DNA of 64,000 nucleotides, taken from contig CALMYL010000015.1 in assembly GCA_937873695.1 (NCBI GenBank), forward strand, positions 39,247 through 103,246. Direction: 5' to 3'. The notes below the pieces were generated by a model. That model was not told where the DNA came from and ran no database searches. It worked only from the letters and a program-made list of their open reading frames with translations. Made by a program: the position numbers and the translations under genes. Origin of the DNA: an uncultured Ignavibacteria bacterium (GTDB taxonomy: Bacteria; Bacteroidota; Ignavibacteria; Tepidaquicellales; OLB5). This document shows positions 41,834-63,973 of this stretch, piece by piece. Each line of letters starts with the position of its first letter. Position 1 is the stretch's first letter.

Positions 41834-41957
41834 AGAATGCCTAAAATAACTCTAAAAATATAAACATTTAATCCACATATTTTCCTATTAAGTAATTAAG
41901 GTTCAAATAATAGATAGTTTAAAATGAATAGAATTAATAAGTTTGCTACATCACATT

Positions 41958-43037
41958 ATGCCCACAAAAAGAAAAAATACTAAAAAAACAGAAAATCAGG
42001 GAGTACTTTACGTTCAGAATGTAATCAACGATTCTAATTGCATATTTAATAAAATTGATACTTCAAATGATATTGGTTTAGATGGTTATCTCGAATTTGT
42101 TGAAAGAGAAACAGTGTCCGGTCTATGTTTAGGAGTACAGATTAAGTCTGGTAATTCAAATAAAAATAAACAAAATTATGTAACAATTAAATCTGACAAA
42201 GAACATTTCGAATACTGGTTTAGCCATAATTTACCTATAGTGGGAATTGTTTACATACCCGAAGATTCCTTAGCTTACTGGATTGATATAACTGAATATT
42301 TAAGATTAAATGAGAATATAGTAGAAACTGGACCCTATGTAATACATATTGGAAAAGAAAATGTTTTCACTTCAGAGACATTTCCACAATTTTATGAAAA
42401 ATTAATCCATTACAAAAACTCTTTCAATCAAGAATGGTCCTTTGGTAGAGCGTTAAAATCTCTAGCTGACTTTCATTCTAAAGATATACGTTTTGATGCA
42501 TTAAAATCTTTGTTTTATTTCCATAGAAATGAACCTGCAGCATGGTACTATATTATTAATCAATTTAAAATTGAGACAGATTCAAAAATACAATACTTAA
42601 TTATTTATTTGATGAGACATTTGACAAACCATGGTGATATTTTTTGGCATAACAACAATATCATTCAACAAGATACAAGAACTTACGGCAGAGAAATTAT
42701 TACTAAATTATTCAGCAATAATGAAATATACAAACTCTTGAATTTCATAGACGAAAATGGAATTGATCGAGGTAGTGTTGGACAGGATATTTACGCAATA
42801 ATAGATTTAATCAATAACAAAATTGAAATTTTGAAAGAAATAATTTTAAGGAACGATTGCACTGACGAAATAAGATTTTGGGCAGGGATGATAATTATTG
42901 AAGAAATATATCCTTACGATTTAAGACGAGCAATAAATTTTTGTGAAAGTATGATAAATAATTTTCCGGATTCACCATACAAAGCAAATTTTGTAGAAAT
43001 TGGATTGAATTTGCTCGAAGAAGAACAGATCCAATAG
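41958..43037 (+). CDS. DUF4365-like (restriction-endonuclease-fold) N-terminal domain protein with an uncharacterised helical C-terminal region
   Basis: N-terminal ...DIGLDGYLEFVE...GVQIKSGNS... pattern resembles DUF4365 (DxGxDg.ie ... vQvKs); AT-rich gene; ATG 41958. Confidence 0.5.
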   Translation: MPTKRKNTKKTENQGVLYVQNVINDSNCIFNKIDTSNDIGLDGYLEFVERETVSGLCLGVQIKSGNSNKNKQNYVTIKSDKEHFEYWFSHNLPIVGIVYIPEDSLAYWIDITEYLRLNENIVETGPYVIHIGKENVFTSETFPQFYEKLIHYKNSFNQEWSFGRALKSLADFHSKDIRFDALKSLFYFHRNEPAAWYYIINQFKIETDSKIQYLIIYLMRHLTNHGDIFWHNNNIIQQDTRTYGREIITKLFSNNEIYKLLNFIDENGIDRGSVGQDIYAIIDLINNKIEILKEIILRNDCTDEIRFWAGMIIIEEIYPYDLRRAINFCESMINNFPDSPYKANFVEIGLNLLEEEQIQ

Positions 43038-51661: not shown

Positions 51662-52723
51662 ATGAGACAACTTTTCACGATTCGCAAGGTTCATTTATTC
51701 ATCTTAATTTTTGCAGTTGTATTTTTTTCATTCAACGGTAGTTTTGATCTTGCAGTTGATAAAGATTTGGACGAAATTCAATCAGAGAATTTTTATCTGA
51801 GCAGCGTAAATATCAGTTCAGCAGATGAAGTTACTGATCTTAGTGCTTCAGTTCAATTAAACAGACATTTTAGTTTTAACTCTGATTTCAGCCTTGCCGA
51901 TACAATAATATTGCCCGCTAATCCCGGTCCCGCAAATAATGGTCTCAGTGCAGCCGGAGCGGGAATACTTTTTAACCTGATCGGCGGAACAAGAGATCTG
52001 TATGTTACTGCCATCAAAACGGCTTTATCACTGACAGCGGGCTCCCCGGTAAGATTTGAAGTGTACATACGTGAAGGAAACGCATTAGGCGGCCCGGTGG
52101 GTTCCGGACCCGGCAGTTCTCTGGCAGGATGGACATTGATTGATACCGCTGATGGTTTCCAGGGTTCAGTTTCAAACGGAATTTCGGAATTGATCAATCT
52201 GGGACCTATTCCGGTTCCCGCTAATGATACTGTTGGAGTGGCACTGAAGTTTGTACTTGGCGGACCCCGGTACTTTGGTACTGGAACACCTCCGCTTGAA
52301 AATTATCTGGATACGAATTTAAGATTGATAACCGGTGATGCACGTTCAGCTGTATTTACGACCGGAGGCACATGGTTCTCTTCACGTGCTTTGACAGGTG
52401 AGCTGCGTTATGTTGTTAGCACTACTACAGGTATAACAAACCTGAACACAGGTATACCCGAAGGTTATAAGTTATCACAGAATTACCCGAATCCGTTCAA
52501 CCCGAGCACAAATATAGAATTTGCTATTCCCGAAAAGAACAATGTTACACTAAAAATTTACAATGTTCATGGTCAGGAAGTAGCAGTACTGGCAAATGGT
52601 GAGTATGCGGCGGGCTCATATATTGTAAACTGGAATGCCGAAGGCATTGCAAGCGGAGTATATTTCTATACGATACAATCCGGAAGTTTTACTCAAACTA
52701 AGAAGCTTTTGTTGGTTAAATAA
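51662..52723 (+). CDS. Secreted protein of unknown function with a T9SS C-terminal sorting domain
   Basis: C-terminus NYPNPFNPSTNI...KIYNVHGQEV...GVYFYTI...KKLLLVK. Confidence 0.6.
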   Translation: MRQLFTIRKVHLFILIFAVVFFSFNGSFDLAVDKDLDEIQSENFYLSSVNISSADEVTDLSASVQLNRHFSFNSDFSLADTIILPANPGPANNGLSAAGAGILFNLIGGTRDLYVTAIKTALSLTAGSPVRFEVYIREGNALGGPVGSGPGSSLAGWTLIDTADGFQGSVSNGISELINLGPIPVPANDTVGVALKFVLGGPRYFGTGTPPLENYLDTNLRLITGDARSAVFTTGGTWFSSRALTGELRYVVSTTTGITNLNTGIPEGYKLSQNYPNPFNPSTNIEFAIPEKNNVTLKIYNVHGQEVAVLANGEYAAGSYIVNWNAEGIASGVYFYTIQSGSFTQTKKLLLVK

Positions 52724-52846: not shown

Positions 52847-52916
52847 TGCGCGATGGTGTAACTGGCAATCCTGCTCAAGCGGGATTTCATTCGGCGGCCG
52901 CCGAATTCAACACGCC
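52847..52916 (+). pseudogene. Partial duplicate of the tRNA-Gln 5' part (acceptor 5' strand plus D arm), interrupted by a roughly 42-nt GC-rich palindromic insert
   Basis: tgcgcgatggtgtaactggcaa matches tRNA 52946..52967 at 21/22; caacacgcc (52908..52916) matches 52965..52973; no anticodon or T arm follows. Confidence 0.6.
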
Positions 52917-52945: not shown

Positions 52946-53018
52946 TGCCCGATGGTGTAACTGGCAACACGCCTGATTCTGGATCAGGAAAGTCTAGGTT
53001 CGACCCCTAGTCGGGCAA
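52946..53018 (+). tRNA. tRNA-Gln (anticodon CUG), CCA not encoded
   Basis: Folded by hand: acceptor TGCCCGA/TCGGGCA, D stem GTGT/ACAC, anticodon stem CCTGA/TCAGG with loop TTCTGGA, T stem CTAGG/CCTAG with loop TTCGACC. Confidence 0.95.
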
Positions 53019-53035
53019 CAAGCTCCAATAGCTAA

Positions 53036-53095: not shown

Positions 53096-54067
53096 CTACG
53101 AACCGGCTACGATTTCTAGCATTTGAAGATATCCTTGAGTAGTACTCAAATTCTTGTGCCCCAGAAGATTCATCACTTCATATATCGGCCGATTTTCTAG
53201 ATTCGCCCAAATACTAGCTCTCCTGTGCCTCAAGTTATGAAAATTCCAAGTCCGTTGACCAAGTTGTTTAACAAAAACTTCAAGAAATTGGGGACGGTTA
53301 TTCCAACGTTTGAACAAGCGTTCATCATCATTTATCTTTGGTAACTCAAGCGTTAGCGGAACCCGTCGCGGCATAAGATCTGAATTTCTGCTTTTCCTTG
53401 TTCTTAAAATAACATGCCCTGGGCTTACATCTGCTCCGGTTAGACGCAAGGCTTCGGAAACTCTTGCTCCTGTTTGCTCTATAAATGTTATTAGTAATCT
53501 TTCTTCAGAATCGCACATTTCCAAAACCTCATCAATATCTTTTCTTTTAGGAATATATTTTAACTTTCTATTGATAGAGAAAAGAGAAATTCCTATACAT
53601 GGGTTTTTTATTTCTACCTCATGATTTTGAATGACATAATTAAATAATGCTTTATAAACCCGTAAAGCTGCATTTGCAGCGTAATTGTCTTTGTTTTTGG
53701 ATTTGAGTGATTCAGACATTATTAGCAGGTACTTGTTTATATCATTTCGAGTAATTTCAAATAATAGTTTATCACCAATATAATCAAATAAACCCTTATA
53801 ATATTTTTTACAATCGTAATAATATTTGTTAGATTTTTTAGTTTTAATATAATCAAGGCGTTCATTAATAGCCTCTAAAAGCCTCAAATAGGACTTCTGT
53901 GAGGATTTATGCTGTCGATTAATGATTTCATCATATCTTCTATTTTCGGCTTTTCTAGCCTCATTTTTGGTTGAATATATAGCGGTCGAAAAATAGGTAC
54001 TTCCCGCAAAATCGAATTTGTACCACCATCTAGCTCCTTTTTTTAGTTTTCTCAAATATTGTGCCAT
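53096..54067 (-). CDS. Tyrosine-type site-specific integrase
   Basis: C-terminal catalytic pattern ...ARVSE(A)LRL..., HNLRHRRAS, LLGHKNLSTTQGYL (R..H-x-x-R..Y). Confidence 0.85.
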   Translation of the reverse strand: MAQYLRKLKKGARWWYKFDFAGSTYFSTAIYSTKNEARKAENRRYDEIINRQHKSSQKSYLRLLEAINERLDYIKTKKSNKYYYDCKKYYKGLFDYIGDKLLFEITRNDINKYLLIMSESLKSKNKDNYAANAALRVYKALFNYVIQNHEVEIKNPCIGISLFSINRKLKYIPKRKDIDEVLEMCDSEERLLITFIEQTGARVSEALRLTGADVSPGHVILRTRKSRNSDLMPRRVPLTLELPKINDDERLFKRWNNRPQFLEVFVKQLGQRTWNFHNLRHRRASIWANLENRPIYEVMNLLGHKNLSTTQGYLQMLEIVAGS

Positions 54068-54400: not shown

Positions 54401-54436
54401 AAAAAACAAACCCCTGAAAACAGGGGCTGTTTTTTG
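54401..54436. terminator. Bidirectional rho-independent terminator about 180 nt downstream of the cargo operon
   Basis: aaaaaacaaacccctg-aaaa-caggggctgtttttt. Confidence 0.7.
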
Positions 54437-54617
54437 TTATGTGCATATAGAGGGGCAACATAACAAACGGAAGTAATATCCGTATTTTTATCTCATATTA
54501 AAGGTATAAATTTCAATCTTCATTTTTAGTGCTAAATGGAAGTAAATATCTTTATTCCCATCCCGAGCAACAATTCCCTGAATAGACTACTTACTTCACT
54601 GTCTCAAAGTATTTATC

Positions 54618-55700
54618 CTAGAAATGAAAATTCTCTGGTAAAGAAAATTTCATATTAAATGAGGATACAAATTTTGCATCAGTATGATCATCATTCAAAT
54701 TATTCCATTCTATACCTGCCGTTAAATCAACCCAAATCCCGTCAAATACTCCTAATTCCGAACCGAAGTTCAATAGGGCGTTTGAAGATTTTGTTTGTCC
54801 ACTGTAAGAAAATTGACCCTCAACAAAGGCTTTTATTCTGTTAATACCACCATAAAATCTAGTTCCAACTGAATATTCTTGGTAATTGCTTGAATCTTTG
54901 AAATGACTAAAATTTCCTCCCAAAATCAACTGTCCCCAACTACTAATTGGATGTGAGTAAGAAACCCAAAACGATAATGATTTGAATTGCAGCCTCTTAA
55001 CCAAACTGTCACTTGACTGACCCAAAACAGCCATTGCCACATCTAACTTTTGTTTATTCCAATTAATGGATTTGTAATGTGATTTAATACTCTCTAAGGA
55101 GTCATCATATGACGATTGGATCCTTGATTTAACATAATCCTCCATCCTCTTATGAGTGCTTGAATCACTAATCGCTAATTGTATTGTTAAGTGATTTTGT
55201 TTCAAAAATTCATCTTGATATTTATCTTTTTCAGAGACAATCTTAGAAGTTAAGTTATACAATTCATCCCTGAATAAGCGATCATTCTTCAAATCGCCTT
55301 TGTCAATTATGCTAATTCGAGTTCCAATCGACAATTTAGTAGTGTTATCATTTGAGTCAAGCAATGTGCCTACAGAAAGTCTTAAGCTGTATAACTGACT
55401 GTTATTGTCATATTGCTGTAAAGTTAGTCCTTTATTGAATAATAGAAATGGAGCTATTTCAACTGAAATTGACTTAGGTAATACTAGATTGGTTCCATTT
55501 ATGAATTGGGCAGCAATTAAAGAAATACTTTCGGGAGTAGAAGGTTTTAAGATTTCGCTTGGTGAAGTACCAAGCATCTTGAAAGCCGGTATATCCGGTA
55601 CAGCAAAATTCAGTTTAAATCGCTTCACCAGATTTGTATCTTGTGAGTTTACGTTTAACGCAAAAATGATTAAAACCACTATACTAACAATCTTGTTCAT
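54618..55700 (-). CDS. Signal-peptide protein, possibly an outer-membrane beta-barrel; function unknown
   Basis: Signal MNKIVSIVVLIIFALNVNSQ; alternating-residue strands near the C-terminus; terminal aromatic ...ENFHF; start overlaps the upstream stop (TAATG). Confidence 0.4.
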   Translation of the reverse strand: MNKIVSIVVLIIFALNVNSQDTNLVKRFKLNFAVPDIPAFKMLGTSPSEILKPSTPESISLIAAQFINGTNLVLPKSISVEIAPFLLFNKGLTLQQYDNNSQLYSLRLSVGTLLDSNDNTTKLSIGTRISIIDKGDLKNDRLFRDELYNLTSKIVSEKDKYQDEFLKQNHLTIQLAISDSSTHKRMEDYVKSRIQSSYDDSLESIKSHYKSINWNKQKLDVAMAVLGQSSDSLVKRLQFKSLSFWVSYSHPISSWGQLILGGNFSHFKDSSNYQEYSVGTRFYGGINRIKAFVEGQFSYSGQTKSSNALLNFGSELGVFDGIWVDLTAGIEWNNLNDDHTDAKFVSSFNMKFSLPENFHF

Positions 55701-56077
55701 TAGTTTTTATGTTTAATAATTATATAAATTAGTGAGGCTTGGAAGCCGCCGGTAATTTTTCCAGAATCGCTTAGTTCGCCCAACAGTTTTCCCCCCTGAT
55801 GAATTTGAGCTTTTATCTCATAAGATCTTCCCGAACTTTGATCTAATCCGACAAATTCTGTTCTGAGTTGCAACAGTCTTCCATGATTTGTGCTTACCGG
55901 TAGCGGTAATTTGAATGAATCATCATCAATATTCTGATTATTTCCTTCCTCATATTTCACTCTATCATTACTGTTTGCTTCCCATAAAGTAAAAGAATAC
56001 GAAGCAACAATTAGGTCATCAAAAGTAAATGAAGCCGTTAATCTTTCTCCGTTTGGATCAAACTCAATTGTTTTCAT
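55700..56077 (-). CDS. Hypothetical 125-aa cytoplasmic protein directly downstream of the nuclease gene (candidate nuclease inhibitor/immunity; inference only)
   Basis: No signal peptide; 31 nt after the nuclease gene; no recognisable motif. Confidence 0.35.
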   Translation of the reverse strand: MKTIEFDPNGERLTASFTFDDLIVASYSFTLWEANSNDRVKYEEGNNQNIDDDSFKLPLPVSTNHGRLLQLRTEFVGLDQSSGRSYEIKAQIHQGGKLLGELSDSGKITGGFQASLIYIIIKHKN

Positions 56078-56108
56078 GAATTACATAATTGATTTAATTT
56101 GGAATTAT

Positions 56109-56912
56109 TTATTTTCTTTCTAAAGCATCTTGAATGCGAGTAGGCAAATCACTGAAAAAATCATACCCGCTTGAAATCTCTATATTATCCACAGTTGTTT
56201 CATAAGTTTCCCATTTTACTTTTTTTATACCAGACTCATTGGGCATCATGACAGCAATTACTTCTGTATTTTCAGTAATGGCTTTTGGAGTTTCGTAACG
56301 TCTCAGAATTACAATAATCTTGTAGCAACTGTCGGGTATGGCAATATCATTATCTAGTTTTTTAGCTGTGCTAAAAACTCCACCAGCTATCACATACAGT
56401 TCTTTGTTATTTCTCAAACACAACTTACGGCAATATTCTTCAAGTTGCTTCCACGGACCTTGATTCAAATCCGGTTCTTGCGGGTATATGTTGGACATCA
56501 AAAACGTTGCTTTATTATTCGTTGTACTGTTTGACCGATCTTTACTGGCAACAATATGCCCTCGGTCGTAGCCTGTATTAGTGTAGTCTCTTGTAGTTAC
56601 TTTGTGATAATTATTCGGTAATTCATATTCTGGTTTAAAACCAGAAACACGATTGTATTTCCCATACCATTTTTTATTTAAATTCCAGCTTGCCCAATTA
56701 GCTACATTTTTATTCTTGTTGTAACTGATTACATATTGTTTTCTTTTTATGAGAAAATCATCAGTTGGGTCAGAATCAGTTGGAATGCCAAGTTCGACAT
56801 TAATCATCCAAGAATCATTAGTTTGAGAATAAATAGATGATAGAAACAGTATCAAACTAACTATGAGGATTTTCACTGTGATATGCGGATCAAATCTGAT
56901 TGTAATTTCCAT
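56109..56912 (-). CDS. Secreted DNA/RNA non-specific endonuclease (Serratia NucA / Endonuclease_NS, beta-beta-alpha-Me family)
   Basis: GYDRGHIVAS (DRGH catalytic motif) and SNIYPQEPDLNQGPWKQLE (NxxPQ...NxGxWxxLE); hydrophobic N-terminal signal/anchor. Confidence 0.85.
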   Translation of the reverse strand: MEITIRFDPHITVKILIVSLILFLSSIYSQTNDSWMINVELGIPTDSDPTDDFLIKRKQYVISYNKNKNVANWASWNLNKKWYGKYNRVSGFKPEYELPNNYHKVTTRDYTNTGYDRGHIVASKDRSNSTTNNKATFLMSNIYPQEPDLNQGPWKQLEEYCRKLCLRNNKELYVIAGGVFSTAKKLDNDIAIPDSCYKIIVILRRYETPKAITENTEVIAVMMPNESGIKKVKWETYETTVDNIEISSGYDFFSDLPTRIQDALERK

Positions 56913-56940
56913 ATTTAAAGCAATTTATGTTGTTTGATTT

Positions 56941-58245
56941 TCAAGCTTTTTGTTCGGGAATTTTAAAGCCCAAATATGCCCCGGAACTAATTCCCATTAA
57001 AGCTAACAAAGTGTCATCAAATTCAGGCAGAACTATATTTTTGAGTACCATAATTATATAGACTACTCCAAGAGCTACCGTCCATCCAACAATCTGAAAA
57101 CGATGCAAGCTAACACCGTTGCTATCTGATAATATATCTTTGATGAAACTTTTATGCCTGTCTATAGGATTAACGATTTCTGCCTCGCTTATCAATAATT
57201 TCAATTCCTTCAAACGGTCTTTACCGTCTAAGATTTCTTTCTTTAGTTTTTCAGCATACTCTAATGTATTCTGAGAGTTCAAATTCAATTCCAATTCATT
57301 CAGACGAAGCTCTAAAACTTCCTTTTCATTTTGTATTTGCAATAATTTATTTCTCTCTTCGACTTTCTTATTCGTGTTCATTGAATTTGCTACCACACCT
57401 GTAATAGTACTTATACCCATTAAAACTAATGCCGTTTTGTTTAAAACAGGCGCTTCCTTATTAATCATATAAATAAATACCGTTGAAGACATAATGAGAA
57501 CGTACCAGAATGCCATTTGAGTCAATGCCAAACTATACGGAGCCTTATATTTTTGTTCTCCAGTTATCTGAGGTTCGCACAAGATACTTGATCTTCTGGC
57601 AAGAATGATTAGTGGCAGCCAAAATACACCCGCTATAAAAGTTATCATTATCCAAAATTGCGAAGATCGCATTGTAGAAAATCTAAAACCGGTAACGACT
57701 GTTCTTTGCTCTTGTTCACCCTCTATGCCTACACTTAGTTTAAATGTATTTATACCGATTAACTTGAAATTATTACGACCGATTAAATCTTTCCATGCTG
57801 GATTTGTAAGCTCATTACGTTTTAGTATGAATAATAATACTTCTTTAAAGCCTCCTTTATCATCCGGAATCATTGTTGTTTTGCCAACAATACCTTTCAT
57901 TTCTATACCATTGATGAATAAGTGTATCTGTTTATTAACTCTTCCTGAGAATTCGTTAAGTTTGTTCAAACTATCCATCTCAATAATGATTTCATCACCA
58001 TAAACGCTAAAATCGTTATCCCGATTTATGTTATATGCTTTCAATACTATAGTATTAAAAACTTTTTCATTTCCACCCTTCTTTGATGTGTCAGCTTTTA
58101 GTTTATTGTCATCACCTTTTTTTTGGTCATTGCCTTCGAGTTCTGGCTTCAGTTTAGAGACATTGACAATACTACTATCAGTTTGTGCATAAATGTGCAA
58201 AGTCAAAAAACACAGTGTTATAATAATAATAGATTTCATATTCAA
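56941..58245 (-). CDS. Hypothetical multi-TM envelope protein with an N-terminal exported domain and a central coiled coil
   Basis: Signal peptide, about 5 hydrophobic helices, and heptad-rich KKVEERNKLLQIQNEKEVLELRLNELELNL...KELKLLISEAE. Confidence 0.45.
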   Translation of the reverse strand: MNMKSIIIITLCFLTLHIYAQTDSSIVNVSKLKPELEGNDQKKGDDNKLKADTSKKGGNEKVFNTIVLKAYNINRDNDFSVYGDEIIIEMDSLNKLNEFSGRVNKQIHLFINGIEMKGIVGKTTMIPDDKGGFKEVLLFILKRNELTNPAWKDLIGRNNFKLIGINTFKLSVGIEGEQEQRTVVTGFRFSTMRSSQFWIMITFIAGVFWLPLIILARRSSILCEPQITGEQKYKAPYSLALTQMAFWYVLIMSSTVFIYMINKEAPVLNKTALVLMGISTITGVVANSMNTNKKVEERNKLLQIQNEKEVLELRLNELELNLNSQNTLEYAEKLKKEILDGKDRLKELKLLISEAEIVNPIDRHKSFIKDILSDSNGVSLHRFQIVGWTVALGVVYIIMVLKNIVLPEFDDTLLALMGISSGAYLGFKIPEQKA

Positions 58246-58278
58246 ATCAATCTATTTGATTAACAAACATTTATAAAA

Positions 58279-59160
58279 CTATTTTGTATGCAATAAACCT
58301 TGCTCATCCAACATTTTACGTAAAATATCTTCAACTCCAAGCATTTTTGCATTCTGAGATATACCAATTTTTAATTTTTCTTTTAGGTCAGGTTCTTTGA
58401 CTTCAGAAATCTGATAGGTTAACATCTTTGTCATTTTTAGATATTTTTGTTTCTGATACCATACATAACCAATGATTATACAAACAATGACTCCGGTTAA
58501 GAGCAGTATCTCGGTTATATTTCTTTGTAAAAATCCCCAGTCTTGTAACTCCGGCTTTAAATCCGATCTATAGCGATTAGCAATTGTTATCATGGCGGAA
58601 TCTACTATAGTATTAATTCCTGATCTAGTTTCCGGACCCAACAATACATTGCGAATCGTAGATAACTTTTGCGAGGTTGTATCATTTAATAATTCATTTC
58701 TCAATTCAGATATTATCAACTTCAATAGTTCTCTGGTATTATAACCAATCAATTCATTGCGAACATTCATTAAATATATTAAGGTTTTGTCTCCCAATAG
58801 CTCATCTCTGATTCTACCCAGTTGTCTTCTCGTAACATCACCGATAATATCGTTCTTGACTTCATTTAACCACTGACGTGTATATTCTCCCAATAACGAA
58901 TCGCGAATTCGTATCATTTCAACATTTGTTGAATTACCTACAATTTTTAACAATGAATCCAGCTTTTGACGCAATTTCACTTGAGAGTCTTCGGTTGTAA
59001 AGCCATCTACTACTCCTAGAATTAAATGCCTCCCAACCGAATCAGCTTTATTTTGCAAACCTTCTCCCAAATCTTCTCCGACACCTTTGAAATTAAAACA
59101 ACTGCTGAACACAACAATTGAAAAAAAGGAAATGATTAAAGATAAGCAAATCCCTTTCAT
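58279..59160 (-). CDS. Hypothetical lipoprotein-like protein with six tandem R(D/N)ELLGxxT repeats and a C-terminal TM helix
   Basis: Signal ending VFSSC; repeats IRDSLLGEYT, KNDIIGDVT, IRDELLGDKT, VRNELIGYNT, LRNELLNDTT, IRNVLLGPET; TM ILLLTGVIVCIIIGYVWY. Confidence 0.45.
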   Translation of the reverse strand: MKGICLSLIISFFSIVVFSSCFNFKGVGEDLGEGLQNKADSVGRHLILGVVDGFTTEDSQVKLRQKLDSLLKIVGNSTNVEMIRIRDSLLGEYTRQWLNEVKNDIIGDVTRRQLGRIRDELLGDKTLIYLMNVRNELIGYNTRELLKLIISELRNELLNDTTSQKLSTIRNVLLGPETRSGINTIVDSAMITIANRYRSDLKPELQDWGFLQRNITEILLLTGVIVCIIIGYVWYQKQKYLKMTKMLTYQISEVKEPDLKEKLKIGISQNAKMLGVEDILRKMLDEQGLLHTK

Positions 59161-60422
59161 TGGATCGCCCTTTCTTTTTTATCAGCATATAGATATGGCT
59201 TATTTCGTAGTTCAGCATTATGAATAGCAAAATCATTGCCAATAATTTTTCCGTTTTGTAAATCAGCTTCCCATTCCTCTGAAATTATTAGTTCATTTTC
59301 GTCATAATAATCAGTTTTTAAGTTAGAATTATTGATTGTCATAATAATATAGCCGTTATGCCCAATCTCGACTTTTTCAACTTCTTTACAAACCCGGTTA
59401 TCGAATAAAACTAGATTGCTTTCACTCGCTTTTTGATGTTTGATTTTAGATACATTCACTAATTCAATAGGCATACCTCCATGACCAAGACATCTGCCAT
59501 AAGCAGTGAGTCCTTCATTTGTTTGGTATTTGCCATAAATAGCCAATCTATGTTCATGACCCCAATACCAAAGTATTGCTCTATCTTTACCTATAATTTC
59601 TGCTAATTGCTCTGCTGGGCGCAGATATTGACTTTCAAATGCAGAACAATATTGATGATGACTCAACAATACAATACCTCGTTTGTCATTTTTTAAATCA
59701 TATTTTGATTTGAGCCAATTGATGAAGGAATTCTCAAGTTTGCAATCAGGTTTAAATCGGGAAATAGGAATATACTCCAAGATAGGCTTTCCTACAGAAT
59801 TATATCCTGTATCCAGTCCGATGATTATCCAATAATCATTGCTTAGGCTCATATAGCTTGCACCCTGCCCGAGTTCACCATGCGCCCCCATCGAAGGTAA
59901 CAAATCTCGAAAATATGAGACACCTCTGGCATACATTTCATGATTTCCCAGTAAAGCAAAGCTGCCTAACGTTCCTCTATACCAGGAACTTCCGGGATTT
60001 ATAAAGTTACTTTTAATCTCGTGAGAGGCTCCCACATAATACGTATCTCCAAGATGTATTGTATAATCCGGCTCATGTGTGGCAATTTGACCCCCAATAA
60101 AATCAGATTCATCAGTATCGTTTGCCCAATCAGCAACAAGAGCTATTTTTGCAGTTCCTTTAAAATTGTACACTCCTTCTGAAGGATTCATTGATGGGTC
60201 ATAAGACTTATAATCAGCTTTCGGTCCAAAACGGCTTTTAATATAGTGTTTAAACCAACCTAAAATATTATTCTCGAAAAAATCCTTAATTTTGTATGAA
60301 GTAGGCTGTTGCGCAGTAGCCACCGCTTTTGCTGCCTGCTGAGTCTTACTGGCTTCTGTTTTGTAATGATTCTCAACAAAAGTTCGACCTAAATTTATAT
60401 ATTTCTCAAAATTTCTTTTCAT
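59157..60422 (-). CDS. Calcineurin-like metallophosphoesterase
   Basis: LVADWAND, HLGDTYY, LLGNHEMY, LLSHHQ and WGHEHR match the five metallophosphoesterase motifs; no signal peptide. Confidence 0.8.
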   Translation of the reverse strand: MKRNFEKYINLGRTFVENHYKTEASKTQQAAKAVATAQQPTSYKIKDFFENNILGWFKHYIKSRFGPKADYKSYDPSMNPSEGVYNFKGTAKIALVADWANDTDESDFIGGQIATHEPDYTIHLGDTYYVGASHEIKSNFINPGSSWYRGTLGSFALLGNHEMYARGVSYFRDLLPSMGAHGELGQGASYMSLSNDYWIIIGLDTGYNSVGKPILEYIPISRFKPDCKLENSFINWLKSKYDLKNDKRGIVLLSHHQYCSAFESQYLRPAEQLAEIIGKDRAILWYWGHEHRLAIYGKYQTNEGLTAYGRCLGHGGMPIELVNVSKIKHQKASESNLVLFDNRVCKEVEKVEIGHNGYIIMTINNSNLKTDYYDENELIISEEWEADLQNGKIIGNDFAIHNAELRNKPYLYADKKERAIQ

Positions 60423-60431
60423 ATCTATTTT

Positions 60432-62120
60432 TTAGTCAATAAATGGGCGGTTATATTTTTCAACAAGTAACTTGCAATTTCTTTCTGTAATCGCAGAAAT
60501 GGTAAACAACGGATTTGTTCCCAATGATGTAGGAATCATTGATCCGTCCATAACATACAATCCCTCGTGAATGCTATGAGCGTCATTACCGGAAAAAGCT
60601 TCACTTCTATGATTGACAACACCATCCCTGCTTGTATCTGCCATTCTAGAGCCTCCCAAGGGATGGACGGTAACTAATGCATTTTTAAATAGTTTTACCC
60701 AGACCGGATCTTGGATATAATTTCCATGAAGAGCTTTAGTGCATTTCAATAACGACTCATTTATTTTTTTAAAAATCTCTTTTTCACCGAGTCCTTCCCA
60801 GCTTATACGAAGTCTGTCGTTCTCAAGGTACATTCTCCCATCACTACCATCGTGTCCCATAGCTAAATAGATTTGTGTTTGATTTACCGCTCCATGATAA
60901 GAGCCGAGCAGTAAGCTTTTTAAGGTTCGATATTTTTCAGCAAAAATATCGCTAAAAGTTTCACGCCCGATTAACATCTTGGCAAATAAAAGTGAAAAAG
61001 GAAGTAAGCGACCTTCTGCCAATGCGACCGGGATAGAGCCTTCTTCTATACAAATACCATCTTGATAATTTTTTACATCATTTCTATTATCGATTAACGT
61101 TGTAATGTTTGGTCCGCAATATGTTGTATCGTTGAGCGAATTTTTAAGATAGCCCAACCCATTAATTTTAGTATTAGTATTATAAGCAATGCCTAAAAAG
61201 TCCGCATTTCCACTAAAACCAAATCCGAGGTTATCTGACAAAGGCAAACCAAAGTTTCTTGATCGCAGTAGAATTTCGGTTGTGCCCAAAGTACCTGCTG
61301 AAATAATCACAATGTCAGCCTGTACGCAAGTTAAGACATCTTCAATATCATCTTGGTTCGTGTTAGTTGGATAATAATATACATTCCATTTATTATTGTC
61401 TTTTTTGATACTGTAGACTTTTACACCGGTAAATATTTGGGCTGAATGATTATATGCGTCAGGTAAATAATTCATTTGAGTTGTGTTCTTAGCCGTTGTA
61501 TTACACCCAGAACAACAATTTCCACAGTTATTGCAAGCCTCCTGCTTAACCCCTGCTTTATTAACTCTATCTGTGAACGTTACATTTAATGGCGCAAAAC
61601 TAACTTCTGCACCTTCAATTGTCGATGCCGACTTAAAATGAGCATTAGCTTTATATAGCTGCTTAATATTAGGATAGGCATTAGGTCCGAACATCTCCCA
61701 AGCTCTTCGATAACCATCTTTCACTCCATTTTCCATATCATCAACAATCTCGGCTGGCCATTGACCGTTTGTAAAAACTTCCTTGTGTGGTTTAAGGACT
61801 ACATTTGCATTAATCAACGATGTTCCTCCAAGTCCACAGCCCACCAGAACGCTTTGTTCATCATTGACCCTAAAATCAAACAAAGCATCATTGTTTCCCT
61901 TTTTTTTGTCGGCAAAATCATATTGAGTTTCTTTACTAGTTGCTTTAAGAGTTTCCGGAAACTCAGTTGGTAAAAATTCCTTGCCTCTTTCCAAAAGACA
62001 AACCTTCATCCCTGCTCGTGCTAATCTTGATGCTGAGATACTTCCACCATAACCTGAGCCAACTATGACAACATCATACGATTTTTTGATCTTATCAATC
62101 GATTGAGAAATTTTTTCCAT
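60432..62120 (-). CDS. GMC-family FAD oxidoreductase (cholesterol-oxidase-like subgroup)
   Basis: YDVVIVGSGYGGS dinucleotide fold; GCGLGGTSLINANV; CNNCGNCCSGCNTTAKNT; C-terminal HPLGGSRM and GLYVMDGSMIPTSLGTNP. Confidence 0.85.
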   Translation of the reverse strand: MEKISQSIDKIKKSYDVVIVGSGYGGSISASRLARAGMKVCLLERGKEFLPTEFPETLKATSKETQYDFADKKKGNNDALFDFRVNDEQSVLVGCGLGGTSLINANVVLKPHKEVFTNGQWPAEIVDDMENGVKDGYRRAWEMFGPNAYPNIKQLYKANAHFKSASTIEGAEVSFAPLNVTFTDRVNKAGVKQEACNNCGNCCSGCNTTAKNTTQMNYLPDAYNHSAQIFTGVKVYSIKKDNNKWNVYYYPTNTNQDDIEDVLTCVQADIVIISAGTLGTTEILLRSRNFGLPLSDNLGFGFSGNADFLGIAYNTNTKINGLGYLKNSLNDTTYCGPNITTLIDNRNDVKNYQDGICIEEGSIPVALAEGRLLPFSLLFAKMLIGRETFSDIFAEKYRTLKSLLLGSYHGAVNQTQIYLAMGHDGSDGRMYLENDRLRISWEGLGEKEIFKKINESLLKCTKALHGNYIQDPVWVKLFKNALVTVHPLGGSRMADTSRDGVVNHRSEAFSGNDAHSIHEGLYVMDGSMIPTSLGTNPLFTISAITERNCKLLVEKYNRPFID

Positions 62121-62160
62121 ATTGCGAATAGATTATGATTTTAAGTTCACAAATGACATT

Positions 62161-63699
62161 TTAGAGTTCACAGCTTTCCGTAAACAAATTATGAAAGGTC
62201 TTATATTGATTCATTCTATTAAAAATTTCCTTCCATTTATCAAATGATGGGTACAACTCTTGAATACGTTCATTATTCAAGTGATTCCATTGTCCCCAAT
62301 GGGGTCTAGCACCAAGTGGTTTTAGCTCGTCTTCTATTCTGTTAAGTGTTTCAAAGCCAGCTTGCGTATCTAATAAAATCGGTACTTCAATTGTACATTT
62401 AGCCTCACGATTAAACATCGAGAGTAGACCATCACTCTTTGCTACAAAACGAACACCAAGTGGAGAGGAATGACAAAGTTTGCCGAGTTGTCTCTTTTTT
62501 TCAGCAAGGTCCAGTATCGTATCAATTGTTGTAATATGCTTATCACCACGTAAAGAAAGTGCAAATTCTGCGGCATATCCTTTGATAAAGTTAGCTGCGC
62601 CTAAGTTAAGTACATAATAACTTTTATGAGTATACCCGTCTTTGTCAATTAACTGATTCATAGCGATTTGAATCAAAGTTGGAGCATGTTCTGGGAAAGC
62701 TATGAACCACCATCTAAAAATAAATTCTAATGGTTTGGCTATTAGTTCTAAAAACCATTTCCTGCTCCGTTTACCAAGAGGCAAGTGTCCCGGTATTTGT
62801 TGCGGTATATTTCTTCTTGTTATAAGACAGTTATTTTTACCGTTAACCTTATATGGATTAATATAAACTTCAAAATGACGATTACTTTCTAAATAATTTG
62901 GTTCGGTCTCTGAAAATACCACTTCCTCGCATATTAATTTTTTAACATCTTTCCAATCAACTTCATTTAACTTCCCCAATCTCTCTTCTTCCAGGTAATA
63001 ACTGGATCTAACTTCTAAAATGACAGAATATATGACACCCATACAACCCATACTAATTAAGACGGCATTAAAACAATCATCATCCTGAATCAAGTTGTTA
63101 TTAGGATATTGTTCTCTGTACTTTTCCGGATCAGTGATTCCGTTTTGTGGTTCAATCCTATAAATTTGTCCTTTTTCACCTACCAAAACAATAGATTTAA
63201 TGCTTGAAGCAATCGGACCCAATCCAAAGCCGGAACCATGCGTAGAAGTACAGGCGGCGCCAACAATAGTTTGAGCATCATAACTACCCATGTTTATCAA
63301 TGCTTTATTTCTTGAATCTAAATATTCATTTAAGTTTTTTATAGTGATTCCGTTTTCAACTTGCTCCAAGTAAGTTACATCGACATATTCTTTTAATAAT
63401 CTCCTTTCCAGTTCAATTGGTTTATTCATTCTTTTACAGTCGATCAGAAAATCATTCGTCTGTGTAATATTAGTAAAAGAATGACCTGAACCAACAGCTT
63501 TAACCCTGCAATTCTTTATATATGCAAGATGAAGTATCTTGTGAAGCTGTACCAGAGTTCTTGGCTCATAGTAACGCAATGGTTTTACTATTTGATTACC
63601 TACACAATTTTCCCAAGATTTTCTGATACTATAAGGAATCGTACCTTCGATCTTATGTGAAACTTCCGGAATAGATTCCATTGCGTTTAGCATAGACAT
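62161..63699 (-). CDS. FAD-binding PCMH/VAO-type oxidase of the D-arabinono-1,4-lactone / L-gulonolactone oxidase-like family
   Basis: VKAVGSGHSF (flavinylation-type His), GAACTSTHGSG, and a C-terminal ARPHWGQ (HWGK-like) block. Confidence 0.7.
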   Translation of the reverse strand: MSMLNAMESIPEVSHKIEGTIPYSIRKSWENCVGNQIVKPLRYYEPRTLVQLHKILHLAYIKNCRVKAVGSGHSFTNITQTNDFLIDCKRMNKPIELERRLLKEYVDVTYLEQVENGITIKNLNEYLDSRNKALINMGSYDAQTIVGAACTSTHGSGFGLGPIASSIKSIVLVGEKGQIYRIEPQNGITDPEKYREQYPNNNLIQDDDCFNAVLISMGCMGVIYSVILEVRSSYYLEEERLGKLNEVDWKDVKKLICEEVVFSETEPNYLESNRHFEVYINPYKVNGKNNCLITRRNIPQQIPGHLPLGKRSRKWFLELIAKPLEFIFRWWFIAFPEHAPTLIQIAMNQLIDKDGYTHKSYYVLNLGAANFIKGYAAEFALSLRGDKHITTIDTILDLAEKKRQLGKLCHSSPLGVRFVAKSDGLLSMFNREAKCTIEVPILLDTQAGFETLNRIEDELKPLGARPHWGQWNHLNNERIQELYPSFDKWKEIFNRMNQYKTFHNLFTESCEL

Positions 63700-63770
63700 T
63701 TATAATACTTCAAATTCTTTAAGAAATCTGCAAACTGAATTTAAAATTTCCACATTTTAATTTCTTTATT

Positions 63771-63788
63771 TTTGAAAAGCTTTTCAAA
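63771..63788. promoter_or_regulatory. 18-bp perfect palindrome upstream of the cargo operon (candidate operator)
   Basis: tttgaaaagcttttcaaa lies 72 nt upstream of the first operon ATG and 12 nt before a divergent small ORF. Confidence 0.4.
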
Positions 63789-63799
63789 TAATAGGTAGA

Positions 63800-63973
63800 A
63801 TGATTGAACAATCTTACTTCTTAAATGAAGATTTAGAAAAATTACATCTATTGATTATTCTTGATTTGATTGAGGGGATAAAATCGGTTTATATTACAGA
63901 TTTTTCAAATATAAATTTTACAGTTTGTTGCAGAATTTTATCGATATATACCGTAAATTGGGTAGGAATGTGA
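63800..63973 (+). CDS. Possible divergently transcribed 57-aa ORF (below the ORF-track length cut-off)
   Basis: Hand translation: MIEQSYFLNEDLEKLHLLIILDLIEGIKSVYITDFSNINFTVCCRILSIYTVNWVGM*; no motif recognised. Confidence 0.2.
   Translation: MIEQSYFLNEDLEKLHLLIILDLIEGIKSVYITDFSNINFTVCCRILSIYTVNWVGM

What the first reader, a model, noticed from the sequence alone, without database searches (positions are those of the whole stretch)
54618..63699. Candidate undescribed system: tightly coupled 8-gene operon mixing three cytoplasmic enzymes with five envelope or secreted proteins
Eight co-directional ORFs have spacings of 40, 9, -4, 33, 28, 31 and -1 nt, including two translational-coupling overlaps (ATGA and TAATG). 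One palindromic upstream region and one strong terminator (54401..54436) bound the operon.

Gene order:
- ALO/GULO-like FAD oxidase
- GMC flavoenzyme
- metallophosphoesterase (these first three lack signal peptides)
- lipoprotein with six R(D/N)ELLGxxT repeats and a C-terminal TM helix
- multi-TM coiled-coil protein
- secreted DRGH nuclease
- 125-aa cytoplasmic protein
- OMP-like protein

I know of no described pathway, secretion apparatus or defence system with this composition. Four of the eight products have no recognisable family.

Possible readings, all of them inference:
- an envelope-spanning antagonism or defence module with a nuclease effector
- an extracellular nucleic-acid scavenging unit
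- a small-molecule (sugar, polyol or lipid) oxidation pathway coupled to export
Basis: partly seen in the sequence, partly recalled or inferred. Interest (0 to 1): 0.75.

Follow-up and report, generated by a model that had tools for sequence, protein, structure and literature searches.

The report
Mosaic eight-gene island operon
A tightly packed eight-gene block in an uncultured Ignavibacteria chromosome is real and matches no described system. It is a patchwork of three smaller recurring gene modules carried on an integrase-linked variable islet, not one conserved eight-part machine.

Summary
All eight minus-strand ORFs, their spacings, the upstream palindrome and the terminator are confirmed. 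Four products have families: a VAO/ALO flavin oxidase, a GMC flavoenzyme with a Cys4 motif, a metallophosphoesterase and a NucA-type secreted nuclease. The other four (g4, g5, g7, g8) match nothing in Pfam, NCBIfam, PHROGs or PADLOC.

The block is the entire variable cargo between conserved genes and a tyrosine integrase next to tRNA-Gln. A sister genome keeps g4, g5, g6 and the integrase at that site. It swaps the enzyme trio for an analogous membrane-GMC/PhoD-like set, and swaps g7-g8 for TIR-SLATT-TIR-TIR-TPR-S.

The eight-gene combination was seen only in this lineage, but sub-modules recur:
- GMC + phosphoesterase, usually with a patatin or other lipase, and sometimes with ALO or g4.
- g7-g8 as an obligate pair (6 of 6 loci), with patatin nearby in 3 of 6.
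- g5 next to g8-like genes in two distant metagenome loci.

Best reading (about 0.4): a mosaic accessory "conflict" cassette that combines envelope proteins with degradative, lipid- and nucleic-acid-directed enzymes. Function is inferred, not shown. A single eight-part apparatus is unlikely (about 0.1). Scavenging and envelope-lipid remodelling remain live rivals.

The parts
63771..63788 (.). Perfect 18-nt palindrome TTTGAAAAGCTTTTCAAA, 72 nt upstream of the g1 start. It lies inside the variable part of the islet and is a possible operator or promoter element.
   Evidence: Read directly. A second imperfect inverted repeat lies at 63737-63764. Function not tested.
62161..63699 (-). g1: VAO-family flavin oxidase (FAD_binding_4 + ALO domains) with no signal peptide. 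It carries a GSGHS motif, the position of the covalent-FAD histidine in ALO/GULO/AldO enzymes.
   Evidence: Pfam 7e-16 and 2e-16, above cut-offs. It scores below the NCBIfam sugar-lactone-oxidase cut-offs. Closest solved structures are an FAD-binding protein (8ot8) and xylitol/alditol oxidase (2vfr), E about 1e-16. Homologues lie next to the MPE in L022, and fused to patatin in L061.
60432..62120 (-). g2: GMC flavoenzyme, closest to cholesterol oxidases, with an inserted CxxCxxCxxxC motif (residues 196-206). No signal peptide.
   Evidence: Pfam GMC_oxred_N/C. The NCBIfam cholesterol-oxidase equivalog scores 166 bits against a cut-off of 850. PDB cholesterol oxidase 1b4v, E 2e-17. The Cys4 motif is conserved in 7/7 g2-type homologues.
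59157..60422 (-). g3: calcineurin-like metallophosphoesterase (MPE) with GDxY, GNHE and GHEH motifs. It resembles the purple-acid/PhoD type and has a roughly 90-aa conserved N-terminal extension. Its stop overlaps the g4 start by 4 nt.
   Evidence: Pfam Metallophos 1e-7, above cut-off. The family has more than 1100 members. Invariant motif residues are listed. The only PDB sequence matches are weak, to purple acid phosphatases.
58279..59160 (-). g4: bitopic lipoprotein-like protein. It has a signal ending in Cys21, five to six 16-residue helical repeats, a TM helix at 215-233 and a roughly 60-aa tail.
   Evidence: No family. Homologues: 90% identical in the sister islet L083; directly upstream of the MPE in L026 and L082; upstream of GMC-MPE-ALO in L022.
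56941..58245 (-). g5: member of a large unannotated inner-membrane family. It has a signal peptide, a periplasmic beta-sandwich (about 62-190), TM1, then two copies of a 2-TM hairpin flanking a long coiled-coil hairpin (270-356).
   Evidence: More than 1200 homologues in many phyla. AF2 model pLDDT 78. No PDB fold or sequence match. Internal duplication: hhalign 97.7%, E 2e-12. Not SLATT-like.
56109..56912 (-). g6: Sec-exported sugar-non-specific nuclease of the NucA/Serratia type (DRGH, beta-beta-alpha-metal).
   Evidence: Pfam Endonuclease_NS 7e-54. Anabaena NucA structures 1zm8/2o3b, E 2e-56. Hydrophobic N-terminal signal. 76% identical copy after g5 in L083.
55700..56077 (-). g7: 125-aa all-beta sandwich with no signal peptide. 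Obligate partner of g8; the genes overlap by 1 nt.
   Evidence: AF2 pLDDT 95. Best fold matches are Bacteroides DUF4425 proteins 4qey/3u6g (TM 0.5, probability 1.0), then lipid-binding sandwiches UNC119/PDE-delta/C2 at lower scores. 144 cluster representatives. Sits directly upstream of g8 in 6/6 loci.
54618..55700 (-). g8: predicted outer-membrane protein with a signal peptide and a C-terminal aromatic beta-signal (...FSLPENFHF). The central region (about 140-215) is charged and probably helical.
   Evidence: Small family of 23 clusters. No Pfam or PDB match. g8-like genes lie beside g5 homologues in L102 and L141. Fold not modelled.
54409..54428 (-). Intrinsic-terminator-like hairpin with a T-run, 190 nt after the g8 stop. 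It lies in the part of the islet conserved with the sister genome.
   Evidence: sequence; conservation boundary.
53096..54067 (-). Tyrosine recombinase (phage-integrase family), 85% identical to the integrase at the same position in the sister islet.
   Evidence: Pfam Phage_integrase 7e-12 and PHROG integrase 6e-36.
52946..53019 (+). tRNA-Gln(CTG), 77 nt from the integrase stop. This is the likely integration landmark.
   Evidence: ARAGORN; Rfam tRNA 61.6 bits. No att-type repeat of its 3' end was found in the 20 kb available.
54494..63864 (.). Variable cargo segment. DNA similarity to the sister genome stops at about 63865 on one side and resumes at about 54493 on the other. Inside it, only g4 (58287-59109, 84%) and g5-g6 (56149-58107, 77%) are shared.
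   Evidence: blastn of L001 against L083, with coordinates converted to window coordinates.

Best explanation
The eight genes form one co-directional, probably co-transcribed block. That block is the whole variable cargo of a small integrase-associated islet beside tRNA-Gln in an Ignavibacteria chromosome. It is a mosaic of three modules, and each module recurs independently elsewhere.

Module A (g1-g4): an ALO/VAO-type flavin oxidase, a cholesterol-oxidase-like GMC flavoenzyme with a Cys4 motif, a purple-acid/PhoD-like metallophosphoesterase, and the bitopic repeat protein g4. Elsewhere the GMC + phosphoesterase core travels with a patatin-like or alpha/beta-hydrolase lipase. I therefore infer that it acts on a membrane lipid or polar head group: ester or phosphoester cleavage followed by oxidation of the freed alcohol.

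Module B (g5-g6): a new 5-TM inner-membrane protein with a periplasmic beta-sandwich and a cytoplasmic coiled coil, followed by a Sec-exported NucA-type nuclease.

Module C (g7-g8): a DUF4425-like beta-sandwich plus a predicted outer-membrane barrel. These two are an obligate pair.

The modules are cross-linked more often than chance allows, and the sister islet mixes them with TIR/SLATT genes. I therefore read the block as an accessory conflict cassette for inter-bacterial antagonism or defence. In this reading, degradative enzymes (a nuclease and lipid-directed enzymes) are the effectors, and g4, g5 and g7-g8 are envelope-located accessory parts acting as anchor, sensor or conduit.

Shown here: the anatomy, the domain identities, the island context and the recurrence patterns. 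Inferred: co-transcription, the lipid substrate, the effector role, and any physical link between the envelope proteins.
For: Island context.
- Integrase and tRNA-Gln are adjacent, G+C is lower, and the left flank is housekeeping.
- The sister genome L083 has the same flanks and integrase but different cargo: TM-GMC(817 aa), 136, PhoD-like(493), 251, g4 (90%), 260, 299, 243, g5 (81%), nuclease (76%), CAP12-type TIR, SLATT, ThsB-TIR x2, TPR-S.
- The 136-aa protein is homologous to the protein that sits between the TM-GMC and the MPE in L011 and L035. The sister islet therefore carries an analogous GMC + phosphoesterase module.

Module A recurrence among 80 MPE loci.
- A GMC gene lies within 3 kb in 23 loci, and a patatin-like gene lies on the same strand in 13.
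- L026 has patatin, then g4-like, MPE and TM-GMC. L061 has a patatin-ALO fusion. L025 has an LCAT/PGAP1-like lipase.
- L022 has g4-like, GMC, MPE and ALO.

Module C recurrence.
- g7 sits directly before g8 in 6/6 loci. Patatin is adjacent in 3/6, and a CHAP + PG_binding protein in one.
- The Spirosoma and Arcicella copies sit among AbiGi, AcrVA2-like, resolvase and SocA/Panacea genes.

Links between modules B and C.
- L141 has g5, then g7-like, then g8-like.
- L102 (from the Thermodesulfovibrionales-labelled protein P0149) has patatin, a 120-aa gene, g8-like, then g5.
- g8-HMM hits occur nowhere else among 1922 ORFs.

Partner enzymes near g5 or g7-g8 (CHAP, M15, patatin) lack signal peptides, as exported effectors or endolysins do.
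Against: - No PADLOC model hits any of the eight proteins. No NTPase or other recognisable sensor is present.
- The nuclease is Sec-exported, so it cannot attack DNA in the cytoplasm.
- The MPE family sits in stable housekeeping synteny in Dyadobacter and other Cytophagales, without GMC or patatin nearby.
- Most g5 homologues are stand-alone genes with unrelated neighbours.
- No immunity-like gene can be assigned.
- No relatives of g5 or g8 were found in phage or viral collections.
- Only 18 of 81 g5 loci have at least 3 kb on both sides, so co-occurrence frequencies are poorly bounded.
- No att repeat delimiting a mobile element was found.
Confidence: 0.4

Rival explanations
1. Phosphorus/nutrient scavenging operon. 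The secreted nuclease degrades extracellular DNA/RNA. The purple-acid/PhoD-like phosphoesterase (with lipases in related loci) releases phosphate and alcohols from nucleotides and phospholipids, and the flavin oxidases oxidise the freed polyols. g8 would be the uptake channel, and g4/g5 envelope helpers.
For: - NucA-type secreted nuclease.
- g3 has PAP/PhoD-like motifs, and the sister islet has a PhoD-like protein instead.
- g1 is closest to alditol/xylitol oxidase.
- Lipases recur beside the MPE.
- In two loci (L022, L035) a histidine-kinase/response-regulator pair lies next to the module, which suggests physiological regulation.
Against: - g1-g3 have no Sec or Tat signal, although their presumed substrates would be outside the cell.
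- No transporter for nucleosides, phosphate or glycerophosphodiesters is present.
- Placement on an integrase islet whose sister copy carries TIR/SLATT genes is unusual for a Pho-type operon.
- g7-g8 elsewhere sit with Abi/anti-CRISPR-like and toxin-antitoxin genes.
Confidence: 0.2
2. Envelope-lipid remodelling or transport accessory module. The phosphoesterase and flavoenzymes modify one of the cell's own membrane lipids. g7 (a lipid-binding-like beta-sandwich) and g8 (an outer-membrane barrel) move it across the envelope, and g4/g5 are membrane organisers. The nuclease is a hitch-hiker.
For: - Many Ignavibacteria homologues fuse the GMC domain to a roughly 650-aa multi-TM domain.
- Lipases are recurrent neighbours.
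- g2 is closest to cholesterol oxidases.
- Secondary fold matches of g7 are lipid-binding sandwiches: UNC119, PDE-delta, C2 and MmpS5.
- The MPE is vertically conserved in Cytophagales, as expected for a physiological function.
Against: - The g7 matches to lipid binders are weak (TM about 0.4, E above 0.1).
- g7 has no signal peptide, so it could not shuttle lipid across the periplasm.
- The cargo is variable between sister genomes, which does not suit a core envelope function.
- No lipid substrate can be named.
Confidence: 0.18
3. One dedicated eight-component, envelope-spanning apparatus. All eight products would work together as a single machine that delivers the nuclease.
For: - Very tight spacing with two overlaps and a single terminator.
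- Products are predicted in the cytoplasm, inner membrane, periplasm and outer membrane.
- The sister islet also combines a GMC/phosphoesterase set with g4, g5 and the nuclease.
Against: - The eight-gene set was found only in this lineage.
- The sister islet lacks g1, g3, g7 and g8.
- None of the 80 MPE loci has g5, g6, g7 or g8.
- None of the 5 g8 loci with DNA has g1-g6.
- The nuclease already has its own Sec signal.
Confidence: 0.1
4. Functionally unrelated genes compacted into one transcription unit by repeated insertion and deletion at a recombination hot spot. There would be no joint function at all.
For: The cargo differs greatly between sister genomes. Most g5 homologues and many MPE homologues occur alone.
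Against: - Partial combinations recur in distant lineages: g4 + GMC + MPE + ALO in L022, and g5 + g8-like + patatin in L102.
- Analogous GMC/phosphoesterase modules sit next to g4-g5-g6 in both islets.
- Translational-coupling overlaps occur at g3/g4 and g7/g8.
Confidence: 0.12

Closest known systems
tRNA-adjacent, integrase-associated genomic or defence islands with variable cargo
   Same: A tyrosine integrase lies 77 nt from tRNA-Gln. G+C is lower than in most of the window. The cargo is exchanged between close relatives at the same site, and the sister cargo contains TIR, SLATT and TPR-S conflict domains.
   Different: No flanking att repeat was found. No mobility genes other than the integrase are present. 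None of the window's eight genes matches a described defence protein.
Anabaena NucA / NuiA secreted nuclease with intracellular inhibitor
   Same: g6 is a close NucA homologue (E 2e-56 to 1zm8/2o3b). It is followed by a small cytoplasmic protein of similar size (g7, 125 aa).
   Different: g7 is an all-beta, DUF4425-like sandwich with no NuiA family hit. It pairs with g8 in loci without any intact nuclease gene, and the sister nuclease has no g7. To my knowledge NuiA is an alpha/beta protein; this is from memory and was not tested here.
Effector sets of contact-dependent or secreted antagonism systems (T6SS Tle lipases, Tae/Tge wall hydrolases, Tde nucleases) and holin/endolysin-type (type 10) export
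   Same: The recurrent partners of g5, g7-g8 and the MPE are signal-peptide-less patatin lipases, CHAP, M15 and GH19-like wall hydrolases, and nucleases. These are the same enzyme classes. A Dyadobacter g5 homologue sits beside an M15 peptidase and Tle1-like fragments.
   Different: No T6SS, holin, spanin or wall-hydrolase gene lies in the window. The window's nuclease uses Sec. No immunity gene is identifiable. g5 has no fold match to holins or any solved structure.
Cholesterol-oxidase-like GMC flavoenzymes (Streptomyces ChoA structures; mycobacterial ChoD-type enzymes with a Cys-rich insert, the latter from memory)
   Same: GMC N and C domains are present. The best solved relatives are cholesterol oxidases. 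A conserved CxxCxxCxxxC insert is present.
   Different: g2 scores far below the cholesterol-oxidase equivalog cut-off (166 against 850 bits). The substrate is unknown. The genomic partners (MPE, ALO, lipases) are not those of sterol catabolism.
Thoeris / TIR-SLATT conflict systems
   Same: These genes follow g5 and the nuclease in the sister islet, in the same orientation.
   Different: They are absent from the window: no TIR or SLATT domain is present, and g5 is not SLATT-like.

Membership tests
Described anti-phage defence systems (PADLOC-DB v2) | At least one protein matches a model of a known or candidate defence system | tested here: not met
   0 hits for all eight proteins and the integrase at E<=0.01.
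tRNA-integrated genomic island | Integrase gene adjacent to a tRNA gene | tested here: met
   Integrase 53096-54067 and tRNA-Gln 52946-53019.
tRNA-integrated genomic island | Direct repeat of the tRNA 3' end (att) at the far boundary | tested here: inconclusive
   No repeat of 12 nt or more was found to the right of the tRNA in the window plus 9.7 kb beyond it. The true boundary may lie further out, or the repeat may be short.
tRNA-integrated genomic island | Cargo differs between close relatives at the same site, and base composition deviates | tested here: met
   L083 shares the flanks and integrase (67-82% DNA identity) but only g4 and g5-g6 of the cargo. G+C is 0.32-0.37 against about 0.40.
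GMC oxidoreductase | GMC_oxred_N and GMC_oxred_C domains above Pfam gathering scores, plus an N-terminal GxGxxG FAD motif | tested here: met
   61 and 38 bits against cut-offs of 23 and 24.6. VGSGYGG at residues 19-25.
Cholesterol oxidase ChoA/B (NCBIfam NF058674 equivalog) | Score at or above the curated cut-off (850 bits) | tested here: not met
   166 bits. g2 is only a distant relative.
Sugar-1,4-lactone / alditol oxidase (VAO family, ALO type) | FAD_binding_4 + ALO domains | tested here: met
   Both domains are above the Pfam cut-offs.
Sugar-1,4-lactone / alditol oxidase (VAO family, ALO type) | Score above the NCBIfam subfamily cut-offs (TIGR01678 and TIGR01679) | tested here: not met
   114 and 135 bits against cut-offs of 397 and 292. 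g1 has the fold and cofactor class, but its substrate class is not established.
Calcineurin-like metallophosphoesterase | Pfam Metallophos above cut-off, and the metal-binding motifs GD, GNH(D/E) and GHxH conserved | tested here: met
   32.8 bits against a cut-off of 21.5. G125-D126, G159-N160-H161-E162 and G288-H289-H291 are invariant in 21 homologues.
DNA/RNA non-specific endonuclease (NucA/Serratia type) | Endonuclease_NS domain with the DRGH catalytic motif | tested here: met
   183 bits. YDRGHIVAS is in the translation. E 2e-56 to NucA 1zm8.
NucA-NuiA nuclease-inhibitor pair | A NuiA-family inhibitor encoded with the nuclease | tested here: not met
   g7 matches no Pfam family at all. It is an all-beta fold. 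It co-varies with g8, not with the nuclease.
Outer-membrane beta-barrel protein (g8) | Signal peptide, C-terminal aromatic beta-signal, and a barrel fold | tested here: inconclusive
   The signal peptide and terminal ...FHF are present, and the terminal motif is conserved in the family consensus. No Pfam or PDB match.
Holin/endolysin/spanin (type 10) secretion | A peptidoglycan hydrolase and a holin encoded together with the cargo | tested here: not met
   No wall hydrolase lies in the window operon. Such enzymes occur only in some related loci. g5 has no detectable similarity to any solved protein.
DUF4425 (Bacteroides structural-genomics family) | Sequence match to the family, or a clear fold match | tested here: inconclusive
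   Fold match TM 0.50, E 1e-3, 8% identity. No sequence-level match to the Pfam library or to PDB chains.

The most novel reading that the evidence does not exclude
g5, the g7-g8 pair and possibly g4 may belong to a previously undescribed, modular envelope system found in Ignavibacteriota, Bacteroidota and at least one Nitrospirota-type genome. This system would partner with interchangeable, mostly signal-peptide-less degradative enzymes: patatin and other lipases, CHAP/M15/GH19-like wall hydrolases, metallophosphoesterase plus flavin oxidases, and nucleases. It would either export them as antibacterial effectors or unleash them on the cell's own envelope as a suicide defence. That would make it a new secretion or abortive-defence principle built from protein families with no annotation.
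Probability: 0.2. Interest if true: 0.8.

Novelty: new variant of a known kind. Interest (0 to 1): 0.45.

Why it matters
If the conflict reading is right, this islet and its relatives point to several uncharacterised players in bacterial antagonism or defence:
- a large inner-membrane family (g5, more than 1200 members) with no solved structure or annotation;
- an obligate small-protein/outer-membrane pair (g7-g8);
- a recurrent lipase + GMC/ALO flavoenzyme + metallophosphoesterase module that could be a new lipid-directed effector chemistry.

These occur in phyla (Ignavibacteriota and environmental Bacteroidota) where such systems are little studied.

If the scavenging or lipid-remodelling readings are right, the value is smaller. 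The finding would then amount to annotation of four orphan families and of a widespread enzyme neighbourhood.

Tried and rejected
- PADLOC, PHROGs and NCBIfam gave no system-level assignment.
- g5 has no relatives in GenBank phages and only short C-terminal matches in three plasmids. g5 and g8 have none in IMG/VR viral contigs. A prophage or plasmid origin is therefore not supported.
- The g5 model had no significant Foldseek match in the PDB (best E 0.098, TM <=0.21), and the sequence profile had none.
- The idea that g5 is SLATT-like was rejected (hhalign probability 0.5%).
- g7 as a NuiA-type nuclease inhibitor was rejected: wrong fold and wrong co-occurrence.
- The weak annexin-repeat similarity of g4 (E 8e-4, with no stretch passing on its own) is treated as spurious.
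- The search for att repeats of tRNA-Gln found only an 18-nt copy of the tRNA 5' part upstream of the tRNA.
- A Pfam census of 73 co-directional neighbours of g5 showed no dominant partner family.
- Literature searches for GMC + metallophosphoesterase + patatin and for DUF4425 found nothing relevant.
- Rfam found no RNA element in the region apart from the tRNA.
- An integron reading was considered and dropped on gene layout. The integrase lies downstream of, and co-directional with, the cargo instead of divergent from it. attC-type repeats were not searched for.

Full report
OBSERVATION

The window comes from an uncultured Ignavibacteria chromosome. Identical proteins are found on ENA contig ERZ794926 NODE_48 (154 kb), and NCBI labels them "MAG TPA: Ignavibacteria bacterium".

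The eight minus-strand ORFs exist at exactly the stated coordinates, with gaps of 40, 9, -4, 33, 28, 31 and -1 nt. A hairpin with a T-run at 54409-54428 follows the last gene. A perfect 18-nt palindrome at 63771-63788 precedes the first gene. No convincing internal terminator is present, so a single transcript is likely but not shown.

Gene products:
- g1: FAD_binding_4 + ALO.
- g2: GMC oxidoreductase N + C domains.
- g3: Metallophos.
- g6: Endonuclease_NS with DRGH. Its closest solved relative is Anabaena NucA, E 2e-56.
- g4, g5, g7, g8: no match in Pfam, NCBIfam, PHROGs or PADLOC, whether searched singly or as families.

A tyrosine integrase (53096-54067) and tRNA-Gln (52946-53019) lie directly downstream of the terminator. 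The block has 0.32-0.37 G+C against about 0.40 elsewhere. Left of the tRNA the genes are housekeeping: PFOR, FabF-like, Sua5 and peroxiredoxin.

The most informative comparison is a sister Ignavibacteria contig, L083. Its DNA matches the window's flank up to about 63865 and again from about 54493 through the integrase. Between those points the cargo differs. In order, L083 carries:
- a membrane-anchored GMC enzyme (817 aa);
- a 136-aa protein;
- a weakly PhoD-like 493-aa protein;
- a 251-aa protein;
- a g4 homologue (90% identity);
- three unknown proteins;
- g5 (81%);
- the nuclease (76%);
- a CAP12-type TIR, a SLATT protein, two ThsB-type TIR proteins and a TPR-S protein.

The window's eight genes are therefore the complete variable cargo of an integrase-associated islet. 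That cargo is modular.

DOES THE SET RECUR?

The complete set was found only in this lineage. Parts of it recur.

(A) The phosphoesterase g3 belongs to a family of more than 1100 proteins. I examined 80 genomic loci.
- A GMC gene lies within 3 kb in 23 of them. In the closest Ignavibacteria relatives it is a 1175-aa multi-TM + GMC fusion. In Chitinophagaceae and Mucilaginibacter it is a 45%-identical g2 orthologue.
- A patatin-like phospholipase lies on the same strand in 13 loci.
- L026 has patatin, g4-like, MPE and TM-GMC in that order.
- L061 has a patatin-FAD_binding_4-ALO fusion beside the MPE.
- L025 has an LCAT/PGAP1-like lipase beside it.
- L022 has g4-like, a 115-aa gene, GMC, MPE and ALO. 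That is four of the window's eight genes in an unrelated Bacteroidota MAG.
- The 136-aa protein of the sister islet is homologous to the protein that sits between the TM-GMC and the MPE in L011 and L035. Both islets therefore carry variants of one "GMC + phosphoesterase" theme next to g4, g5 and g6.
- By contrast, in Dyadobacter and other Cytophagales the MPE sits alone in conserved housekeeping synteny.

(B) g5 has more than 1200 homologues across many phyla.
- Its AF2 model (pLDDT 78) shows a signal peptide, a periplasmic beta-sandwich, five TM helices and a long coiled-coil hairpin.
- The two TM hairpins are an internal duplication (hhalign 97.7%).
- Nothing in the PDB resembles it.
- In 81 further loci its neighbours are mostly unrelated. 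A few are CHAP, PG_binding or M15 wall hydrolases. A Nitrotoga copy is plainly stand-alone.

(C) g7 and g8 form an obligate pair.
- In all six g8 loci examined, a 123-126-aa g7 homologue sits immediately upstream.
- Patatin is adjacent in three of the six, and a CHAP + PG_binding protein in one.
- Two of the loci lie among AbiGi, AcrVA2-like, resolvase or SocA/Panacea genes.
- g7 models with pLDDT 95 as a beta-sandwich. Its best structural neighbours are Bacteroides DUF4425 proteins of unknown function (TM 0.5). Lipid-binding sandwiches follow at lower scores.

CROSS-LINKS BETWEEN MODULES

- g8-type genes were detected next to g5 in two of the 81 independent g5 loci. L141 has g5, g7-like and g8-like. 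L102 (whose g5 homologue is the Thermodesulfovibrionales-labelled P0149) has patatin, a 120-aa gene, g8-like and g5. They were detected nowhere else among 1922 ORFs. Only 23 clusters of the g8 family were found, so this is very unlikely to be chance.
- A 377-aa family flanks g7-g8 in two loci and the MPE in a third. A GH19-like protein occurs near both the MPE and g5.
- The wall hydrolases and patatins in these neighbourhoods lack signal peptides.

INTERPRETATION

The block is not one conserved eight-part machine. It is also not a random juxtaposition.

The best-supported picture is a mosaic cassette on a variable islet. It is drawn from a loose network of co-occurring genes. That network combines envelope proteins (g4, g5, g7-g8) with interchangeable degradative enzymes. 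Here those enzymes are a Sec-exported nuclease and a lipid-directed-looking phosphoesterase with two flavoenzymes. Elsewhere they are lipases, wall hydrolases and TIR/SLATT proteins. These enzyme classes and the island setting are typical of conflict systems (antagonism or defence). I rate this reading at about 0.4.

The proposed chemistry of module A is inferred only from neighbours and distant homology. It would be ester or phosphoester cleavage of a membrane lipid or head group, followed by oxidation of the released alcohol by the cholesterol-oxidase-like GMC enzyme and the alditol-oxidase-like g1. The conserved CxxCxxCxxxC insert in all g2-type enzymes suggests an Fe-S centre, and therefore a dehydrogenase rather than a peroxide-forming oxidase. 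That is untested.

Rivals:
- A phosphorus or nucleic-acid/phospholipid scavenging operon (0.2). It fits the nuclease and a PAP/PhoD-like esterase. It does not fit the lack of export signals on g1-g3 or the island context.
- An envelope-lipid remodelling or transport module (0.18).
- Unrelated genes compacted together (0.12).
- The single-apparatus reading (0.1).

COMPARISON WITH KNOWN SYSTEMS

- No PADLOC model matches.
- The NucA/NuiA analogy fails for g7.
- A holin/endolysin-type or T6SS-effector analogy rests only on partner enzyme classes seen in related loci. No defining component is present in the window.
- The integrase-islet framework is a known kind of element. Its cargo is new.

VERDICT

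This is a new variant of a known kind: variable, integrase-linked accessory or conflict islet cargo built from unannotated families. Interest is moderate (0.45).

The most novel reading not excluded is a new modular envelope system that exports or unleashes signal-peptide-less lytic enzymes. I give it about 0.2 probability; it would be of high interest if true.

Noticed in passing
window 52851-52868: An exact 18-nt direct copy of bases 5-22 of tRNA-Gln lies about 95 nt upstream of the tRNA. It may be a scar of an earlier integration or duplication. No copy of the tRNA 3' end was found on the island side.
   Followed up: partly
window 41943-43037 (+): A DUF4365-domain protein (Pfam 1.8e-23) lies between the housekeeping Sua5 and PFOR genes, in a local G+C dip (0.335 for 42-44 kb). 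It may be a small inserted gene.
   Followed up: no
window 61503-61535 (g2 residues 196-206): A CxxCxxCxxxC motif (CNNCGNCCSGC) is inserted in the GMC fold. It is conserved in 7/7 g2-type homologues and in two membrane-fused GMC homologues. It may bind an Fe-S cluster.
   Followed up: partly
L083 12166-15993 (sister Ignavibacteria contig): Directly after the g5-nuclease pair come a CAP12/Pycsar-type TIR, a SLATT protein, two ThsB-type TIR proteins and a TPR-S protein, all co-directional. This looks like a TIR/SLATT conflict module occupying the position where the window has g7-g8.
   Followed up: partly
L061 11167-13719: An 850-aa fusion of patatin-like phospholipase with FAD_binding_4 + ALO (32% identical to g1) lies 330 nt downstream of an MPE homologue. 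A lipase fused to an ALO-type oxidase argues for a lipid-derived substrate.
   Followed up: partly
L005 6405-9932 and 15 similar loci: In the closest Ignavibacteria relatives of g3, the neighbouring GMC domain is fused to a roughly 650-aa multi-TM N-terminal region with no Pfam match. It is preceded by patatin and a GH19-like protein, neither of which has a signal peptide.
   Followed up: partly
window 56941-58245 (g5): g5 contains an internal duplication of a 2-TM hairpin: motifs PYSLALTQMAFW...GIS..T and SLHRFQI..WT...GISSG.Y (hhalign E 2e-12). The C-terminal unit alone matches hypothetical proteins on Rhizobium, Ralstonia and Polymorphobacter plasmids.
   Followed up: partly
L169 6786-7094 (Spirosoma endbachense): A fragment resembling the N-terminus of the g6-type nuclease (33% identity over 101 aa) lies about 3 kb from the g7-g8 pair on the opposite strand. 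The region also holds AbiGi, AcrVA2-like and resolvase genes.
   Followed up: no
window 51662-52723 (+) and beyond the window end (L001 3470-9288): Both sides of the islet carry genes for T9SS-sorted proteins (Por_Secre_tail), including a 1487-aa sortilin-like protein. Whether these belong to the island is unknown.
   Followed up: no
L008 12912-13229: A second, partial copy of the MPE C-terminus (41% identity to g3 residues 292-400) lies 1.7 kb downstream of the full MPE gene in one Ignavibacteria MAG.
   Followed up: no
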